Shown here piece by piece: positions 16,091 through 45,841 of a stretch of 64,000 nt of DNA. The notes beneath the pieces were generated by a model that was given only the letters and a program-made list of their open reading frames with translations, was not told the origin of the DNA and did no database searches. Both the position numbers and the translations under genes were made by a program. Each line of letters opens with the position of its first letter. Within the stretch, counting starts at the first letter, position 1. The DNA comes from Dehalococcoidia bacterium (lineage in GTDB: Bacteria; Chloroflexota; Dehalococcoidia; SHYB01): NCBI GenBank assembly GCA_965261455.1, contig OZ253453.1:1145526-1209525 (forward strand). The letters run 5' to 3'.

Positions 16091-17730
16091 TGAACAACCG
16101 ACTCGATCTGATGCCGGCGGCCCTCTACGCCAGAGTATCCAGCGACCGCCAGGACGTGGACCTGTCCGTGGCCGCACAGCTGCGGGCGCTCAGGGACTAC
16201 GCCGAGAAGAACGGCTACCATGTCGCCCGCGAGTACGTGGACGAGGCCGAGAGCGGACGCATCGCCGACCGGCCCCAGTTCCAAAAGATGCTGGATGAGG
16301 CCGCCAAGCCGGAGGCCCCCTTCAAGGAAATCCTCGTCTGGAAATTCAGCCGCTTCACCAGGAAGCGGGAGCACGCCGTCGCCTTCAAGGCCATGCTCCG
16401 CAGACGTGGTATCCGCGTCGTCTCCATCACCGAGCACGCCGACGATTCCCCCACCGGCAAGCTCCTTGAGGCCATCATCGAGAGCGTGGACGAATTCTAC
16501 AGCGAGAATCTGGCGCAGGAAGTTGTCAGGGGGATGCGTGAGTCTGCTTCTAGAGGCTTCTGGGTGGCCAGTCGCGTGCCCTACGGCTACCGGAAGCTCA
16601 TGGTGCAGGACGGAGCCAAGAAGCGGCCCACCCTGGAACCCGATCCCACGACAGCGACCGTGGTGGAGCGCATCTTCGGCATGGCCGAGTCCGGCAGGGG
16701 AATCCTGGACATCACCCGCACCCTCAACGACGAGGGCATCGCCAACCCCACCGGCAGGCTCTGGTCCAAGAACGGCGTCCACATCATCCTGAAGAACGAG
16801 GTGTACACGGGAACCTTGGTCTGGGGCGTCGACGCCAAGGACAAGGCGGAGCCGGTGCGGGTGGAGAAGGCCTTCCCCGCCATCATATCCAAGGCCCGGT
16901 TCCGCAGGGTGAACCGCAAGCTGCGCTCCCGCGCACCCAGGAGGAGCCACCCCCGCAGGGTGGGGAGTACCTACCTCCTCAGCGGACTGGTCAGGTGCAA
17001 GGCGTGCAACCGAGCGCTCTCCGGACAGGACGCCAAGAGCGGCAAGTTCGCCTACTACGTCTGCCAGTCGGTGATGAAGCGTGGCAGCGGGGCCTGTGAC
17101 GCCCCCAGGCTCAACGCCCGGCGCTTCGAGGAGCAGGTGGTGGGGAAGATTCGGGAGAACGTGCTCACCGAGTCCAACATCCGGGCGTTGGTGAAGCTGG
17201 TGGACGAGGAGATGGACGGCATCGCCCGCGAGCAGCGCCATAAGCTAGAGACCATAGAGTCGGAGCTTGTGGACGTGAAGCGCAGGTTGGGACGGCTCTA
17301 CGACCTGGCGGAGACCACCGACCTAGACATCGACGACTTCAAACCCAGGATACGCGAGCACCGGGAGCGGCAGGAGAGGCTGGAGTCCACGGCGACAGAG
17401 GCGAGGACGGTCCTCTCTCAGCGCAGGGAGGTCCTGGACGACGTGGAGACCATCACGGCCTACGCCCTGGACATGAGCATGTTCCTGAACGAGAGCGAGC
17501 TGACGGAGCGCAGGGCCTTCATCGAGAGCTTCGTGAAGGAGATCGTCGTCATGCCCGACAACGCCGTGGTGCGCTACACGATTCCGATGCCGGACGATAG
17601 CCCCATACCGGGGAGAGACGCCGAGGAGATGGCGCTGAACGGCTCGGTTCTGTCTACCGTCAAGTTTGGTGGGCCCTGCTGGGATCGAACCAACGACCGA
17701 TCGGTTATGAGCCGACTGCTCTACCACTGA
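16090..17730 (+). CDS. Large serine recombinase (resolvase, recombinase, zinc ribbon, coiled coil)
   Basis: ALYARVSSDRQ catalytic motif, SRFTR, PYGY, YLLSGLVRCKAC..YYVC; ATG 16090. Confidence 0.95.
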   Translation: MNNRLDLMPAALYARVSSDRQDVDLSVAAQLRALRDYAEKNGYHVAREYVDEAESGRIADRPQFQKMLDEAAKPEAPFKEILVWKFSRFTRKREHAVAFKAMLRRRGIRVVSITEHADDSPTGKLLEAIIESVDEFYSENLAQEVVRGMRESASRGFWVASRVPYGYRKLMVQDGAKKRPTLEPDPTTATVVERIFGMAESGRGILDITRTLNDEGIANPTGRLWSKNGVHIILKNEVYTGTLVWGVDAKDKAEPVRVEKAFPAIISKARFRRVNRKLRSRAPRRSHPRRVGSTYLLSGLVRCKACNRALSGQDAKSGKFAYYVCQSVMKRGSGACDAPRLNARRFEEQVVGKIRENVLTESNIRALVKLVDEEMDGIAREQRHKLETIESELVDVKRRLGRLYDLAETTDLDIDDFKPRIREHRERQERLESTATEARTVLSQRREVLDDVETITAYALDMSMFLNESELTERRAFIESFVKEIVVMPDNAVVRYTIPMPDDSPIPGRDAEEMALNGSVLSTVKFGGPCWDRTNDRSVMSRLLYH

Positions 17731-17741
17731 GCTAAGGGCCC
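17667..17741 (-). tRNA. tRNA-Ile2 (CAU anticodon, lysidine type)
   Basis: GGGCCCTTAGCTCAGTGGTAGAGCAGTCGGCTCATAACCGATCGGTCGTTGGTTCGATCCCAGCAGGGCCCACCA; resembles ileX, lacks initiator features. Confidence 0.88.
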
Positions 17742-23918: not shown

Positions 23919-24187
23919 GCCGTGCTAGGCGGGGAGCTAGCGGTGCCCTGTATCCGCAATCCGCTACAGCGGGGCTGAATTCCCACCTAGAGGTCCGATG
24001 GCTCCGGGTTGAGCCGGCGACGGCGGCGCTGACGAGCGGGTCCTGCGCGGCGAAGGTCTATGAACTCCGCCAGGTCCGGAAGGAAGCAACGGTAAGTAGG
24101 CGCCTTCGGGCGCCGCAGGCGTGCCTGCTCCGAGCCGCTCGACGCCGGTGATCTCGCCGCTACGACGATCGAAGGTGGGTGCACGGC
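23919..24187 (+). ncRNA. ffs: Large bacterial SRP RNA (with Alu domain)
   Basis: GCCGTGCTAGGCGGGGAG..GCGGTGCCCTGT..GCAATCCGCT Alu motif; CAGGTCCGGAAGGAAGCA helix 8; terminal GCCGTGC/GCACGGC stem. Confidence 0.95.
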
Positions 24188-41382: not shown

Positions 41383-41472
41383 TGGCGGAGCGGGTGGGAT
41401 TTGAACCCACGGTACCCGAAGGTACACACGCTCTCCAGGCGTGCCTGTTCAACCAGACTCCAGCACCGCTCC
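41383..41472 (-). tRNA. tRNA-Ser (GGA)
   Basis: Cloverleaf with long variable arm, loop CT-GGA-GA, ends GCCA. Confidence 0.95.
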
Positions 41473-41489: not shown

Positions 41490-41579
<90 letters not shown>

Positions 41580-42104: not shown

Positions 42105-43412
42105 GTGAAACCTCCCTTCGTTCACCACGTCCTCCACCGCGACGGGCGCTCCGTCTTCTACGGCTGGTGGATCGTCTTCTCCGCCGGCGGTCTCACCATG
42201 CTCGGCGGCGCATTCTACTTCTTCGGCTTCAGCGCCTTCCTGCTTCCCGTCGAAGAAAGCCTCATGACCGACCGCGGCCCCCTCTCTCTCGCCGTGAGCA
42301 TCTCGACCCTCGAAGGCGCAGCCCTCGGCCCCATCCAGGGCTACTTCGTCGACCGGTACGGCCCAAGGCCCGTCATGATGCTCGGCGTCACCCTCATGGG
42401 CGTCGGCTTCATGCTCCTGAGCACCGCCGATTCCCTCCTCGAGTTCTATCTCTTCTTCATCCCCTTCATCGGCATCGGAGCGGGTCTCGGCATTATGTCA
42501 CCCGCCTTCGTGGCGGTGAGCAATTGGTTCATCAAGAAGCGCGGGGTCGCCTTCGGCATCGCGATGACCGGCATCGGCATCGGCGGGCTCCTCGTGCCGC
42601 TGACCCGCTACCTCATCGCCGAATACGGCTGGCAGGACGCCGCCTTCATCATCGGCGTCATCATCCTGATCGTCGGCCTGCCCTTCACCCTGCTCATGCG
42701 TCAGCGGCCCGAGCACTACGGCCTGCTCCCCGATGGCATCACCGAGGAGGAGGCCCGCCGCGACGCCGAGGCCCCCGCGGGCGCGGTGAGCATGCACACC
42801 GAAATCGACTTCACCGTAAAGGAGGCCCTCACCTCGGCGGCTTTCTGGCAGCTAGGCGTCGGCTTCGGGCTCCGGAACATGCTCTCCTCCGCCGTCCTCA
42901 TTCACCTCATCGCCGCCGTCGTCGACCGCGGCCACTCCGAGGCGTTCGGTGCCACAGTCCTCGCCATCATGGCCGCCATCAGCATCCCCAGCCGGATCAT
43001 CTCCGGCCTGGTGCAGGACCGCATAGAGAAGCGCAAGGTGGGCGCCGCCGTGGGCGTGGTCACCTCCTTGTCCCTCGCCTTCTACCTGATGAGCGACAGC
43101 CTGTGGGCCTTGGGCGTCTTCGCGGCGCTCTTCGCGGTGGCCTGGGGCGCGGCGAGCCCGACCCAACAGGCGATCCGCGGCGAATACTTCGGGCGGCTGC
43201 ACTACGCCAAGATCAATGGCTTCGCCAACCTCTTCATGACCGCGGGCTCCGTCGCCGGCCCCGCCATCGCGGGCTACGTCCACGACGCCGTCGACACCTA
43301 CGACCCCACCTTCCTCGGCTTCGCCGCCATCTCGCTCGTCTCCGGCCTCGTCATCTGGCACGCGAGGCGGCCCACCCTCAAGCCTCGCAGCCCGTCGGTC
43401 GCAGCGCCATAA
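42105..43412 (+). CDS. MFS transporter
   Basis: FYGWWIV, DRYGPR, NWFIKKRG, EYFG, multiple TM helices; TTGACA-17-TAGCGT at 42064-42092. Confidence 0.92.
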   Translation: MKPPFVHHVLHRDGRSVFYGWWIVFSAGGLTMLGGAFYFFGFSAFLLPVEESLMTDRGPLSLAVSISTLEGAALGPIQGYFVDRYGPRPVMMLGVTLMGVGFMLLSTADSLLEFYLFFIPFIGIGAGLGIMSPAFVAVSNWFIKKRGVAFGIAMTGIGIGGLLVPLTRYLIAEYGWQDAAFIIGVIILIVGLPFTLLMRQRPEHYGLLPDGITEEEARRDAEAPAGAVSMHTEIDFTVKEALTSAAFWQLGVGFGLRNMLSSAVLIHLIAAVVDRGHSEAFGATVLAIMAAISIPSRIISGLVQDRIEKRKVGAAVGVVTSLSLAFYLMSDSLWALGVFAALFAVAWGAASPTQQAIRGEYFGRLHYAKINGFANLFMTAGSVAGPAIAGYVHDAVDTYDPTFLGFAAISLVSGLVIWHARRPTLKPRSPSVAAP

Positions 43413-43413
43413 T

Positions 43414-43847
43414 CCCCACGGGCTGCCCATCGAAGCGCGTCGAAAGCGTTAGCGCTCCGTGAGTGAGGCCCGCGGAAGGCATAGGGGAACCAGGGCGCAA
43501 CCCCGAAAAAAGGCTGAGTTGGGTAGCGTCCGCGGCGCCGCAGGAGCAGCGCTAAGGGCGCGGGCCCGGCGGGGGTTACCGCGCCGGGCCGCTTCTCCAA
43601 ACTCACCCTTGCAACTCCGGCATGGCCTCGTCGGCCCCTAGGAGACCGGCCATGTGGAGTTCTTCGAGTCAGCCGCTGAGGTCAGCGGCTGACTCGCTCA
43701 AAGCGCCGACAGGCGGCGCCCGGTGCGCCTACGCGCAAGAGCCCCTCGAAGGAGCTCTGGCGCGCGCCCGTGGCCGTTTACAGGCTTCCCAAGGAAGCGT
43801 GGGTATGCGTCTTGGCCTGGCGTCGAACGGGCTGGGTCGCATGGGGA
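43414..43847 (-). ncRNA. Candidate ~430-nt structured RNA of unknown class
   Basis: Many nested helices, closing terminal stem, G-U pairs favour minus strand, TACCAT -10 at 43849-43854. Confidence 0.5.
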
Positions 43848-44008
43848 CATGGTAGGAGACGGGGGCGGGGACGGGGAAGGGGCGGATGTCGCGGAGAAGT
43901 GGCTGTTTCTTCGCCGGCGGGCCGTCCGCGGATCCCGCAAAGGCCCCGCGAGGAGCATTGGGAACCTTTGCCGTGCCGGCGGCGCTGAGGAGCGCGCGCC
44001 CTCAGGGG

Positions 44009-44887
44009 CTAGGCGGGGATTTTGGCCGCGAGCGCGCTCGTCGAGACGATGTGCTTGTTGAGCCCGAGCCGGTGCGGCTCGATATTCATCGCCAAGCCGA
44101 GGATCTGCGGCAGATGGATCACGGGCAGGTTGATCTGCGTCTTACGGGCCTTGGCGGCCTCGGGCTGCTGCCCATCCAGGTTGAGGTGGCACAGCGGGCA
44201 CGGCGTGACCATCGCGTCGGCCCCTTGGCCCTTGGCCTCCAACAGGTGCGCCCCCGCCATCCTCAGCGAGTTGTCCCGGTTCATCGTCAGGATAGGAAAG
44301 CCGCAGCACTTCGTCTTGCCGCTGAAGTCGACCGGCGTCCCGCCAATCACGGTGATCAACTGTTCGAGGTACGAGCCCCGCTCCGGAAATTCGTCGTAGC
44401 CCAGCTTCTCCGTGGGCCGCACCACATAGCACCCGTAGAACGGAGCCAACGCGAGGCCGGTAAGCGGCTTGGTCACGTGCTCCTTCAGCCGGTCCAGGCC
44501 GTAGTCCTCGACCAGAATCCACATGAAGTGCTTTACTTCCGTGGTGCCGTTGTAGCTCAGGCCCTCCGGCTCGAGGTACTTGTTGATGAAGGTGCGGTAG
44601 TCGGGATCGGCCTTCAGCCGGTGGTTGGCCTGGCTCATGACGCCCTGGCAGGTGCTGCAAATGGTCATGAGCGGAAGGCCGCGCTGCTCCGCCATGGCGA
44701 AAGTGCGGGCGTTGAGGGTGTCGCCCAGCTCAGGGTCGCGCTCCTGGAGCACACCCGCGCCGGTGCAGGCCGCCTCTTTCAGGTGTTCGAGGGTGAAGCC
44801 CAAGCGATCGCCCACGAGCTTCATGGCTTGGAACAGCTCGGGCGCGCCGCCCTGAGCGACGCATCCCGGGTAGTAGGCGTAGCGCAT
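44009..44887 (-). CDS. CCG-domain (HdrB/SdhE-like) subunit of succinate dehydrogenase
   Basis: YYPGC, FYGC, CCG, CPLCHLNLD; directly after sdhB. Confidence 0.88.
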   Translation of the reverse strand: MRYAYYPGCVAQGGAPELFQAMKLVGDRLGFTLEHLKEAACTGAGVLQERDPELGDTLNARTFAMAEQRGLPLMTICSTCQGVMSQANHRLKADPDYRTFINKYLEPEGLSYNGTTEVKHFMWILVEDYGLDRLKEHVTKPLTGLALAPFYGCYVVRPTEKLGYDEFPERGSYLEQLITVIGGTPVDFSGKTKCCGFPILTMNRDNSLRMAGAHLLEAKGQGADAMVTPCPLCHLNLDGQQPEAAKARKTQINLPVIHLPQILGLAMNIEPHRLGLNKHIVSTSALAAKIPA

Positions 44888-45841
44888 TTACTCTTTCTCC
44901 ATCTCCTGGAAGATCCGTTTCACCTGCTCGTGCCCGGGGCGCTTGTGGTGCATGATCGGAGGGAACTTGCCCTTGAGCAGCGCCCGCACCGCCGTGGGCG
45001 CCATACGAATCTGCGCCGGCGCGTCGTCGAGCCCAAACGACTCGTAGCCGATCTTGAGCTCGTCCACCCAACCGCTCTCCGACACCGACTTGGCGAACGA
45101 GTCGCTGTGCCGCGTCCCGTTGTTGTCGGTGAACCCCGACTCCTGGGCGGTGCGCCGCAGGTCGACGATACGCTCCATGGGAGCCACGTCCTTGGGGCAG
45201 ACCTCGACGCAGGCGAAGCAGTGGGTGCAGTCCCAAACGCCGCTATATTTGCTCAACTCCTTGAGCCTATCGTCGCGGGACTCCTGCGTCTCTCTGGGGT
45301 CGGCGACGAAGCGGTAGGCCTTGGCCAAGGCGGCGGGACCGATGAAGTTCTCATCGACTTCGAGCGAGGCGCAGTCGGAGACGCAGGCGCCGCACATGAT
45401 GCAGTTCATCGTGTGCGCCAGATCGCCCATAGCGTCCTGGGAGGCGATGTACTCGCGGTCGGGCGCCGGCTGATGCGCCCGCAGGAAGGGCTGCACCTGG
45501 CGGATCTTGCTCCAGAAGCCCGACATGTCGGTGACAAGATCCTTCAACGGCTTCATGTTGCCCATGGGCTCGACGGTGAACGCGCCCTCATCGTCGGCGA
45601 CGTCTTCAATCTTGGTGATGCACGCGAGCTTCGCTCCGCCGTTCACCCGCATGGCGCAGGAGCCGCAGATCGCGCTTCGGCAGGAGCAGCGCACTGCCAG
45701 CGTTTCGTCTTGATACTCGCGAATTCGGATCAGCGCGTCGAGGACGGCGTCGTTGTCCTCGACCTCGACGGAGAAGTCTTCGTAGCGCGACTCCTTGGTC
45801 TCAGGGTCGTAGCGCTTGACCTTCACGTTGACGGTCTTCAA
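44888..45841 (-). CDS. sdhB: Succinate dehydrogenase/fumarate reductase Fe-S subunit
   Basis: SCRSAICGSC, CIMCGAC, CTHCFACVEVCP. Confidence 0.95.
   Translation of the reverse strand: MKTVNVKVKRYDPETKESRYEDFSVEVEDNDAVLDALIRIREYQDETLAVRCSCRSAICGSCAMRVNGGAKLACITKIEDVADDEGAFTVEPMGNMKPLKDLVTDMSGFWSKIRQVQPFLRAHQPAPDREYIASQDAMGDLAHTMNCIMCGACVSDCASLEVDENFIGPAALAKAYRFVADPRETQESRDDRLKELSKYSGVWDCTHCFACVEVCPKDVAPMERIVDLRRTAQESGFTDNNGTRHSDSFAKSVSESGWVDELKIGYESFGLDDAPAQIRMAPTAVRALLKGKFPPIMHHKRPGHEQVKRIFQEMEKE

What the first reader, a model, noticed from the sequence alone, without database searches (positions are those of the whole stretch)
43414..43854. Unexplained ~430-nt multi-helix RNA candidate downstream of the sdh operon
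Seen in an intergenic region with no credible ORF: imperfect closing stem (CCCCACG..GCCCATCGA with TCGAACGGGC..CATGGGG); nested TTAGCGCT/AGCGCTAA and CCGCGGA/TCCGCGG; GGCCCGGCG/CGCCGGGCC with a GUAA loop on minus; AACTCC-CATGGCC/GGCCATG-GGAGTT; a perfect 14-15 bp hairpin at 43665-43696; and two more hairpins at 43732-43765 and 43784-43798. Three helices have A-C mismatches on plus that become G-U pairs on minus, a TACCAT -10 sits at the minus-strand 5' end, and UGAGUU/AACUCA could form a pseudoknot. I see no signature of RNase P, tmRNA, 6S, T-box or cobalamin riboswitch. Inference: a possibly undescribed large ncRNA.
Basis: partly seen in the sequence, partly recalled or inferred. Interest (0 to 1): 0.75.

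Follow-up and report, generated by a model that had tools for sequence, protein, structure and literature searches.

The report
Decayed copy of terS-like mini-gene repeat
The structured stretch is not a lone new RNA gene but one worn-down, non-coding copy of a repeated mini-gene, found only in one genus of uncultured Dehalococcoidia, whose intact copies encode a small phage-type DNA-binding protein.

Summary
The hairpins are real. The region folds better than shuffles on both strands (z -4.8 plus, -6.7 minus) and matches no Rfam family.

- The own genome has 18 strong copies.
- Six genomes of one genus gave 41 two-ended copies.
- None was found in 34 genomes of other genera.

The conserved unit is window 43470-43894, or from 43419 in a three-copy subgroup, not 43414-43854. 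It reads on the minus strand.

Each unit has four parts: a 50-bp conserved upstream block with -35/-10-like hexamers, an ATG 6 nt after the -10-like hexamer, an open frame, and a structured 3' part.

In 13 of 14 long copies the frame is open for 110-151 codons. It encodes a helix-turn-helix protein that matches phage small-terminase profiles.

The window copy lacks 198 nt of that frame and keeps only a 37-codon remnant.

Two hairpins show compensatory changes across copies. G-U pairs outnumber A-C mismatches on the minus strand.

I found no terminal inverted repeats, no target duplications and no recent copies. I have no expression data.

Verdict: a gene-derived repeat relic. It may still be transcribed. 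An independent RNA function is unproven.

The parts
43470..43894 (-). Core repeat unit, subfamily A copy. The sense strand is the window minus strand.
   Evidence: This span is shared with 8 further long copies in the own genome at 69-87% identity. Both end motifs were found by nhmmer.
43419..43469 (-). 3' extension shared only with two copies of the closest relative genome (L018, L034).
   Evidence: BLAST similarity runs to window 43419/43420 for L018 and L034 only. The flanks of the other copies differ.
43845..43894 (-). Most conserved block of the whole family. It carries a -35-like TTCCCC (43873-43878) and a -10-like TACCAT (43849-43854). Read on the plus strand it is a G-tract run.
   Evidence: Identity between subfamilies is 0.79-0.83 here against 0.25-0.68 elsewhere. 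The hexamers are present in 40 of 40 copies with an 18-nt spacer. The strict sigma-70 consensus scan finds no promoter here. A G-quadruplex-type motif is present in 27 of 40 copies.
43729..43842 (-). Remnant frame of 37 codons plus stop, starting at the conserved ATG (43840-43842) 6 nt after the -10-like hexamer.
   Evidence: The ATG lies 6 nt after the hexamer in 35 of 40 copies and 8 nt after in 5. Subfamily A remnants are 3-53 codons long and their frames are not shared. Long copies keep 110-151 codons from the same ATG.
43784..43798 (-). Short hairpin in the former 5' part of the frame.
   Evidence: Visible. Variants with changes on both sides can be seen in the alignment. I did not count it with controls.
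43732..43765 (-). Hairpin.
   Evidence: Other copies keep a hairpin here with changed stem letters (alignment). I did not count it with controls.
43665..43696 (-). Hairpin of 14-15 bp, perfect in this copy.
   Evidence: Across 20 distinct subfamily A rows, 80.7% of cells pair and 4 of 15 pairs show a change on both sides.
43613..43661 (-). Long hairpin (AACUCC...GGAGUU on the sense strand). It is the best supported structure.
   Evidence: 18 pairs are 98-100% paired and 6 show changes on both sides. It has 39 G-U cells against 2 A-C cells on the sense strand.
43563..43590 (-). Hairpin GGCCCGGCG/CGCCGGGCC. In long copies its loop holds the stop codon of the frame.
   Evidence: 95-99% of cells pair, mostly in invariant columns, and one pair shows changes on both sides. 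The stop-in-loop reading comes from my reading of the sequence printed.
43508..43605 (-).
   Evidence: It is present in the minus-strand minimum-energy fold. 86.2% of cells pair, with weak covariation.
43470..43519 (-). 3' end motif of the unit, with a U-run and two short hairpins.
   Evidence: The nhmmer profile hits always lie within 900 nt of a 5' block: 15 two-ended copies in the own genome. 92-94% of cells pair.

Best explanation
Window 43470-43894 (minus strand) is one subfamily A copy of a repeat family found only in one genus of uncultured Dehalococcoidia.

The ancestral unit is a self-contained mini-gene of about 600 bp. It has four parts:
- a 50-bp conserved upstream block with -35/-10-like hexamers;
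- an ATG 6 nt after the -10-like hexamer, so the mRNA would be leaderless;
- a frame of 141-151 codons for a helix-turn-helix protein related to phage small terminase (TerS);
- a structured 3' part of about 100-170 nt.

The window copy has lost three internal blocks (36, 60 and 102 nt) and the reading frame, and keeps a 37-codon remnant. It is therefore a non-coding relic.

Shown:
- its membership of the repeat family;
- its derivation from the coding form;
- the conserved upstream block and start codon;
- two hairpins kept by compensatory change;
- an excess of G-U over A-C on the minus strand.

Inferred:
- the block is a promoter and the relic is still transcribed from the minus strand into a hairpin-rich RNA of about 370-420 nt;
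- the upstream block is also the binding site of the family's own helix-turn-helix protein, so relic copies may act as extra binding sites.

I see no evidence that the relic has an RNA function of its own.
For: Repeat status and boundaries:
- nhmmer with the 3' tail profile finds 21 hits in the own genome, 18 of them at E < 0.01.
- 15 of these pair with the other end motif.
- Six genomes gave 41 two-ended copies.
- The element was found in 5 of 6 other genomes of the genus and in 0 of 34 genomes of other genera.

Coding ancestry:
- 13 of 14 long copies are open for 110-151 codons from the conserved ATG. Length differences near the N-terminus are all multiples of three.
- dN/dS is 0.31-0.46 for most pairs within the full-length subgroup.
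- The frame's products match PHROG 4044, 'terminase small subunit', at E 1.2e-5 and 1.3e-4. All 21 remote relatives scanned match it too, at E 2e-8 to 1.5e-23.
- 19 of 38 relatives match Pfam PF20901 at E <= 0.01, and 4 of these score above Pfam's cut-off.
- The window copy aligns to the intact copy end to end apart from gaps of 36, 60 and 102 nt.

Upstream block:
- Identity between subfamilies is 0.79-0.83 against 0.25-0.68 elsewhere.
- The hexamers and the ATG spacing are kept in 40 of 40 copies.

Structure:
- In the two central hairpins 90.8% of cells pair, against 26-45% when partners are slid.
- 10 pairs change on both sides, against 1-6 when slid.
- The covariation score is 0.207. No shuffle of 500 reached it.

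Strand:
- G-U cells outnumber A-C cells on the minus strand: 39:2 in the long hairpin, 33:10 in the 14-15-bp hairpin and 57:16 in the 3' part.
Against: - I have no expression data. The only RNA runs found are metatranscriptome contigs, and none lies on 43208-43914.
- The strict sigma-70 scan finds no promoter. The hexamers match only 7 of 12 consensus positions by my count.
- Whole-element folding energy is lower on the plus strand in 38 of 40 copies.
- RNAalifold gives different structures for the two strands, each rich in G-U by construction.
- The 3' part shows little covariation beyond the controls: 3 pairs with changes on both sides, a count reached by 209 of 500 shuffles.
- Orthologous copies differ at 18-21% of sites. 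That is about the rate of the fastest codon phase of neighbouring genes, 14-17%, so most of the relic evolves nearly neutrally.
- dN/dS between subfamilies is 0.7-1.5, so the shorter 110-116-codon forms may not be functional genes.
- Binding of the protein to the upstream block is pure inference.
Confidence: 0.72

Rival explanations
1. The non-coding copies (subfamilies A and C) are a true multi-copy family of structured ncRNAs. They were recruited from the terS-like mini-gene, each has its own promoter, and they have a function of their own, for example regulating the intact paralogues or a resident phage-like packaging module.
For: - The upstream block and start are kept in all 26 non-coding copies examined.
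- Two hairpins are kept by compensatory change.
- G-U cells exceed A-C cells on the sense strand.
- Several copies sit at the same site in species whose flanking genes differ by 7-15%, so they have not been deleted.
Against: - The overall substitution rate is about neutral.
- Covariation is weak in the 3' part.
- Subfamily C shares little beyond the two ends.
- I have no expression data.
- The conserved block lies upstream of the presumed RNA start, so it may be a DNA-level signal.
Confidence: 0.2
2. The family is a MITE-like non-autonomous mobile element. Its ends are conserved because a recombinase supplied in trans, now lost or unrecognised, acts on them.
For: - It has many dispersed copies with conserved ends and variable interiors.
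- Copies are present or absent between genomes whose flanks are 95-97% identical. The window copy is missing from the orthologous spacer of the closest relative. A copy of the relative is missing from the own genome at 2805423/2805425.
Against: - I saw no terminal inverted repeats and no target-site duplications in the 31 copies whose flanks I printed.
- Every occurrence of either end motif in the own genome lies in a short unit, so no larger partner carries these ends.
- The closest paralogues are only 87-89% identical, so there is no recent activity.
- The presence/absence sites differ by 0.9-1.1 kb blocks full of other REP-like repeats, or by wholesale spacer replacement, not by clean insertions.
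Confidence: 0.2
3. The copies act at the DNA level. They would be binding sites for terS-like proteins, that is decoy operators or pseudo-packaging (pac) sites for the resident phage-like head-packaging module.
For: - The most conserved part is a 50-bp block outside the presumed transcript.
- The family's protein is TerS-like.
- The genome holds a terS-terL-portal module and two further terS-like genes.
- From general knowledge, pac sites of several pac-type phages lie inside terS. No call here tested this.
Against: - I have no binding data.
- The resident terS is only about 31% identical in protein sequence.
- None of the hits in the DNA searches with the element lay in the resident terS gene.
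- No relatives were found in viral contigs.
Confidence: 0.07
4. The apparent structure is chance folding of a GC-rich spacer.
For: The genome is 66% G+C and both strands fold strongly.
Against: - No shuffle of 100 folds as well on either strand.
- The same hairpins recur in 20 distinct diverged copies with compensatory changes.
Confidence: 0.02

Closest known systems
Phage small terminase (TerS) genes: PHROG 4044 and Pfam PF20901 (Sf6_terminase)
   Same: The intact copies' product matches PHROG 4044. It has a confidently modelled helix-turn-helix at residues 31-85. Its remote relatives are small proteins of the same PHROG family.
   Different: - It stands alone between host genes, without terL beside it.
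- It is multi-copy and most copies are decayed.
- It has its own conserved upstream block and an ATG at the presumed transcript start.
- Its own sequences do not reach any Pfam cut-off.
- The window copy no longer encodes it.
MITEs and other small non-autonomous repeats of bacteria (reviewed in PMC10969869 and PMC3184786; I saw only the search listing with abstract starts)
   Same: Small size, tens of copies, intergenic location, fold-back potential, no recombinase gene inside, and restriction to one lineage.
   Different: It has no terminal inverted repeats, no target duplication and no partner insertion sequence. It derives from a DNA-binding-protein gene, not from a transposase gene.
REP/BIME palindromic repeats.
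   Same: They share the same spacers. Several copies are flanked by REP-like units, one of which gave over 100 BLAST rows in the genome.
   Different: REPs are hairpins of 20-40 bp (a general definition that I recall). This unit is 380-610 bp and has a gene-like layout.
Large or repeat-associated structured RNAs in Rfam (HEARO/omega-RNA, OLE, GOLLD, ROOL, group II intron domains)
   Same: Length of some hundreds of nt, several helices, and multi-copy occurrence in some of these families.
   Different: No Rfam model matches, even at E up to 10. The window copy is flanked by transporter and sdh genes.
Orphan terS with a structured RNA leader in the same genome
   Same: It is a second case of a stand-alone terS-like gene joined to structured non-coding sequence in this organism. 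tblastn finds that gene as a distant paralogue: 33% identity, E 2.6e-8.
   Different: It has a different architecture. From my reading, the gene there and two other paralogues have ordinary upstream regions, and two carry LexA-box-like palindromes. They lack the 50-bp block, are not leaderless in layout, and do not belong to this repeat family.

Membership tests
Any Rfam family (4227 models) | Covariance-model score at or above the family's gathering score | tested here: not met
   No match falls in 43300-44100 at gathering score. The best row in E-value mode is 17.9 bits against a cut-off of 50, E 1.9.
MITE | Terminal inverted repeats | tested here: not met
   The two ends share only a 5-nt palindromic start. 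They have different conserved motifs.
MITE | Target-site duplication flanking the copies | tested here: not met
   I saw no direct repeat across the junctions of the 31 copies printed. The empty-site comparisons are not clean.
MITE | A related autonomous element with the same ends | tested here: not met
   All end-motif hits in the own genome lie in units of 380-610 bp. The other genomes were searched only around element hits.
MITE | Small, multi-copy, no transposase inside | tested here: met
   18 strong copies of 380-610 bp. The only frame inside is TerS-like.
Small terminase, TerS (applies to the family's intact copies, not to the window copy) | Profile match to TerS families | tested here: inconclusive
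   PHROG 4044 matches at E 1.2e-5 and 1.3e-4. Pfam and NCBIfam give nothing significant for the family's own sequences. Foldseek gives no match with E < 1, and small-terminase DNA-binding domains appear only among the weak rows.
Small terminase, TerS | Encoded next to a large terminase in a head-packaging module | tested here: not met
   In two relatives the intact copy sits in a spacer block of about 1 kb between host genes that are adjacent in the own genome. The genome's terS-terL-portal module lies elsewhere, at about 2.974-2.979 Mb.
Small terminase, TerS | Open frame in the window copy | tested here: not met
   Only a 37-codon remnant is left, and 198 nt of the frame are missing.
Structured ncRNA (generic) | Helices supported by compensatory changes beyond controls | tested here: inconclusive
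   Met for the two central hairpins. Not clearly met for the 3' part. The other hairpins were not counted with controls.
Structured ncRNA (generic) | A transcript of defined ends | not testable with these tools
   Only metatranscriptome contigs were on hand, and none lies on the element.

The most novel reading that the evidence does not exclude
A stand-alone terS-like mini-gene multiplied to about 18 copies per genome in one Dehalococcoidia genus without any recognisable transposase. Its decayed copies were kept because they still work. They could work as promoter-bearing structured RNAs. Alternatively they could be a dispersed set of binding sites for the family's DNA-binding protein, tied to the resident phage-like packaging module, for example as chromosomal pseudo-pac or decoy sites.
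Probability: 0.15. Interest if true: 0.7.

Novelty: new variant of a known kind. Interest (0 to 1): 0.4.

Why it matters
The result removes a false lead. The candidate is not a new single-copy large ncRNA but a member of a repeat family.

The family itself is unusual in three ways:
- It derives from a phage-type DNA-binding gene rather than from a transposase.
- Every copy keeps a 50-bp upstream block and a start codon placed as for a leaderless mRNA.
- It keeps some hairpins by compensatory change even in copies that no longer code.

Together with another orphan terS noted earlier in the same genome, this suggests that terS-like genes have taken on a host-side life in these uncultured Dehalococcoidia.

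For annotation, these units should be masked or labelled as repeats or pseudogenes. The 110-151-codon frames should be called from the first ATG.

Tried and rejected
- **Rfam.** Neither gathering mode nor E-value mode found anything.
- **Small frames in the window copy.** Pfam found nothing.
- **Pfam and NCBIfam on the long copies' product.** Only chance-level rows.
- **PDB sequence profile search.** Nothing with E < 1.
- **AlphaFold model.** Mean pLDDT was 53.9, with only residues 31-85 confident. Foldseek against the PDB gave no match at E <= 0.001.
- **Viral contigs.** No relatives found.
- **Expression.**
  - The one run search gave only metatranscriptome contig sets with small word shares.
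  - Laid on 42400-45400, those contigs fall on parts of the flanking genes, and none lies on 43208-43914.
  - This is no evidence either way.
- **Large terminase.**
  - Pfam families PF03354, PF03237 and PF20441 gave no hit in the own genome.
  - This was misleading. A terL-like gene next to a terS-like gene and a portal gene was found later by reading the region.
  - It was confirmed by PHROG 2 at E 7e-40 and by Pfam Phage_portal at E 5e-81.
- **Choosing the strand by folding energy.**
  - The plus strand folds lower in 38 of 40 copies.
  - I put this down to its G-richness.
  - Counting G-U in each strand's own RNAalifold structure is circular. I used only the named hairpins for the strand argument.
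- **Empty-site analysis for exact ends and target duplications.**
  - The orthologous spacer of the closest relative is entirely different: 341 bp against 621 bp.
  - The other presence/absence sites differ by blocks of 0.9-1.1 kb that include REP-like repeats.
- **Extra conservation of orthologous copies.** Identity of the element is 82-99% against 81-100% for the flanks between the two closest genomes, with no consistent difference.
- **Orientation relative to neighbouring genes.**
  - This used a rough GC3-based gene call.
  - The downstream gene is co-oriented in 9 of 14 cases, which is not distinguishable from chance.
- **Literature.**
  - Two full-text searches found no paper on such elements. 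I saw only the listings and abstract starts. I read no paper and no supplement.
  - The terms of the first search were 'terminase small subunit', 'dispersed repeat', 'pseudogene' and 'leaderless'.
  - The terms of the second were 'Dehalococcoidia', 'repetitive extragenic', 'MITE', 'intergenic repeat' and 'Chloroflexi'.
- **Earlier notes of this scan.** Look-ups near the place and by sequence returned nothing.

Full report
**Setting.**
- The window lies in a single-contig genome of 3.58 Mb and 66% G+C.
- Public record titles of related genomes name them as metagenome-assembled Dehalococcoidia bacteria.
- The finding sits between an MFS transporter gene (42105-43412, plus strand) and a minus-strand operon. 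The operon holds a CCG/HdrB-like subunit (44009-44887), an iron-sulfur subunit and a flavoprotein of succinate dehydrogenase type.

**Checking the observation.**
- The stretch 43414-43854 folds better than dinucleotide shuffles on both strands. The energy is -242.9 kcal/mol (z -4.83) on plus and -238.2 kcal/mol (z -6.74) on minus. No shuffle of 100 did as well on either strand.
- No Rfam family reaches its gathering score here. At E up to 10 only chance-level rows appear, the best at 17.9 bits against a cut-off of 50.
- The four small frames in the stretch match no Pfam family.

**It is a dispersed repeat.**
- A DNA search of the own genome found eight further long copies at 69-87% identity. 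It also found a 66-nt right-hand tail at about ten more places.
- An nhmmer profile of that tail gives 21 hits, 18 of them at E < 0.01.
- A profile of the other end gives 16 hits. 15 of them lie 380-610 nt from a tail. No end motif occurs on its own beside a larger element.
- The shared sequence runs from window 43470 to 43894. Two copies of the closest relative genome share a further 50 nt, down to 43419.
These are the closing stem, TTAGCGCT/AGCGCTAA and CCGCGGA/TCCGCGG.

**Distribution.**
- Among 40 relative genomes, the element was found in 5 of 6 genomes of the same genus. The sixth is 74% complete. It was found in 0 of 34 genomes of other genera.
- With loci fetched from these genomes I collected 41 distinct two-ended copies.
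- I analysed 40 of them and left out one 309-nt copy (L022). They comprise 21 of subfamily A (378-443 nt, including the window copy), 14 of subfamily B (480-607 nt) and 5 of subfamily C (393-401 nt).

**The long copies are genes.**
- Read on the strand opposite to the window's plus strand, the B copies carry an open frame.
- The frame starts at an ATG that is conserved in every copy. The ATG lies 6 nt after a TACCAT or TACTAT hexamer. That hexamer in turn lies 18 nt after TTCCCC or a one-letter variant.
- Counts over the 40 copies:
  - -10-like hexamer: TACCAT 35, TACTAT 5.
  - -35-like hexamer: TTCCCC 31, TTGCCC 4, TTCCCT 3, TTCCGC 2.
  - Gap from the -10-like hexamer to the ATG: 6 nt in 35 copies, 8 nt in 5.
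- From that ATG, 13 of 14 B copies are open for 110-151 codons, and one is frameshifted at codon 48.
- Length differences in the N-terminal linker are all multiples of three.
- Within the full-length subgroup dN/dS is 0.31-0.46 for most pairs and 0.64-0.76 for a few. Between subgroups it is about 0.7-1.5. The full-length form is therefore under purifying selection, while the shorter forms are doubtful.
- A profile search of 1.84 billion representative proteins found 74 relatives at E <= 0.001, mostly proteins of 90-250 residues.
- All 23 proteins scanned against PHROGs match family 4044, 'terminase small subunit'. Two of these are the family's own products, at E 1.2e-5 and 1.3e-4.
- 19 of 38 relatives match Pfam PF20901 at E <= 0.01, and 4 of those score above Pfam's cut-off.
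- The AlphaFold model is confident only for a helix-turn-helix at residues 31-85. Foldseek gives nothing significant.
- The sources give these proteins no name.

**The window copy is a relic of that gene.**
- Aligned with the intact copy of the same genome, it matches from end to end except for three gaps of 36, 60 and 102 nt inside the frame.
- From the conserved ATG (43840-43842) only 37 codons remain open.
- Subfamily A remnants are 3-53 codons long and are not in a shared frame.
- In 4 of 5 subfamily C copies a stop follows two codons after the ATG.
- I infer the direction of change, from coding to non-coding, from the fact that the full-length frame matches the wider TerS family along its length.

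**What is conserved.**
- Between subfamilies, the first 50 nt of the unit (window 43845-43894) are 79-83% identical. The rest is 25-68% identical.
- This block lies upstream of the ATG. It holds the two hexamers, and on the plus strand it is a run of G tracts. A G-quadruplex-type motif is present in 27 of 40 copies.
- A strict sigma-70 consensus scan does not call a promoter here. The promoter reading therefore rests on conservation and spacing and is inference.

**Structure.**
- I counted the two central hairpins of subfamily A on a MAFFT alignment of 21 copies (20 distinct rows).

| Measure | As aligned | Partners slid by 1-3 columns | 500 shuffles |
|---|---|---|---|
| Cells paired | 90.8% | 26-45% | not compared |
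| Pairs with a change on both sides | 10 | 1-6 | not compared |
| Covariation score | 0.207 | 0.03-0.09 | 0.160 ± 0.009; none reached 0.207 |

- The long hairpin 43613-43661 is 98-100% paired, with 6 covarying pairs.
- The 14-15-bp hairpin 43665-43696 is 80.7% paired, with 4 covarying pairs. Part of that loss is due to misaligned gaps.
- The 3' part (43470-43605) is 92% paired against 37-64% when slid. Its columns vary little, however. Only 3 pairs show changes on both sides, a count that 209 of 500 shuffles reach.
- I saw the hairpins at 43732-43765 and 43784-43798 vary on both sides in the alignment, but I did not count them with controls.

**Which strand.**
- In the named hairpins, G-U cells on the minus strand outnumber A-C cells, which would be G-U on plus. 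The counts are 39:2, 33:10 and 57:16.
- The structure used for the 3' part came partly from a minus-strand prediction, so the third count leans that way.
- Whole-element energies point the other way: plus is lower in 38 of 40 copies. I attribute that to the G-rich tail.
- Consensus folds of the two strands differ, and each is G-U-rich by construction.
- No read data were available to settle the strand.

**Age and mobility.**
- The nearest paralogues are 87% identical within the genome and 89% across genomes.
- Several copies sit at orthologous sites in species whose flanking genes are 85-93% identical.
- In such pairs the element differs at 18-21% of sites. The fastest codon phase of the neighbouring genes differs at 14-17%. 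Most of the element therefore drifts.
- The window copy is absent from the orthologous spacer of the closest relative. The flanks there are 97% identical, but the whole 621-bp spacer is replaced by 341 bp of other repeats.
- In the other four genus members the two flanking genes lie 4-9 kb apart.
- Elsewhere, presence/absence involves blocks of 0.9-1.1 kb rich in REP-like repeats.
- I found no inverted terminal repeats and no target duplications.
- The family looks old and inactive. How it spread remains unknown.

**Context in the genome.**
- tblastn with the intact product finds the family's own four B copies.
- It also finds three distant paralogues at about 1.310, 2.978 and 3.516 Mb, at 31-33% identity.
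- The paralogue at 2.978 Mb is followed by two phage genes: a large-terminase-like gene (PHROG 2, E 7e-40) and a portal gene (Pfam PF04860, E 5e-81).
- The three Pfam large-terminase families I tried first had missed this gene.
That note describes a structured leader, and I did not re-examine it.

**Verdict.**
It is wrong in its boundaries and long-range stems.
- The interpretation as a new large ncRNA is only partly supported.
- The best reading is a non-coding relic of a terS-like mini-gene repeat. The relic probably still carries a working upstream signal and folds, on the minus strand, into hairpins inherited from the parent mRNA.
- Whether the relics do anything is open.

Noticed in passing
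own genome about 2,974,000-2,979,015 (locus L079:4290-9016, minus strand): A phage-like head-packaging module. It holds a terS-like gene with two tandem helix-turn-helix units (PHROG 4044, E 3.9e-19), a large-terminase-like gene (PHROG 2, E 7e-40; no Pfam hit) and a portal gene (PF04860, E 5.4e-81). I did not determine whether it is a prophage or a gene-transfer-agent-like cluster.
   Followed up: partly
own genome upstream of the terS-like genes at about 1,310,871 and 2,979,015: Both upstream regions share a similar promoter-like stretch followed by a GAAC-N4-GTTC palindrome. I recall this as the LexA box of Gram-positive type.
   Followed up: no
many spacers of the own genome, for example right of the copies at 2179387, 3411868, 724912 and 1953689, and the orthologous spacer in L052:2285-2625: Short REP-like palindromic repeats fill the spacers. 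A query holding one 33-nt unit gave over 100 BLAST rows in the genome. Spacers differ completely between genomes whose genes are 97% identical.
   Followed up: partly
window 43845-43894, plus strand, and the same block in other copies: The conserved upstream block reads on the plus strand as four or more G tracts with 1-2-nt loops. It is a canonical G-quadruplex motif in 27 of 40 copies. The whole genome has 512 such motifs on both strands.
   Followed up: partly
window 23920-24186 (+); 17670-17741, 41386-41472 and 41493-41579 (-): A bacterial large SRP RNA (177.7 bits) and three tRNA genes, two of them 87 nt long and adjacent.
   Followed up: no
own genome, 15 two-ended copies: By a rough GC3-based gene call, the gene downstream of the unit in its sense direction is co-oriented in 9 of 14 cases, often 20-184 nt away. 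The upstream gene is divergent in 8 of 13 cases. This hints that some units sit as promoter-bearing leaders in front of host genes, but it is not statistically distinguishable from chance. The window copy instead lies between convergent genes, 115 nt after the stop of the sdh-like operon and in the same direction.
   Followed up: partly
subfamily A copies L001, L002, L003, L024, L030: Five copies share a 37-codon arginine/proline-rich remnant frame of similar sequence. The other A copies are in different frames, so I take it as non-functional.
   Followed up: partly
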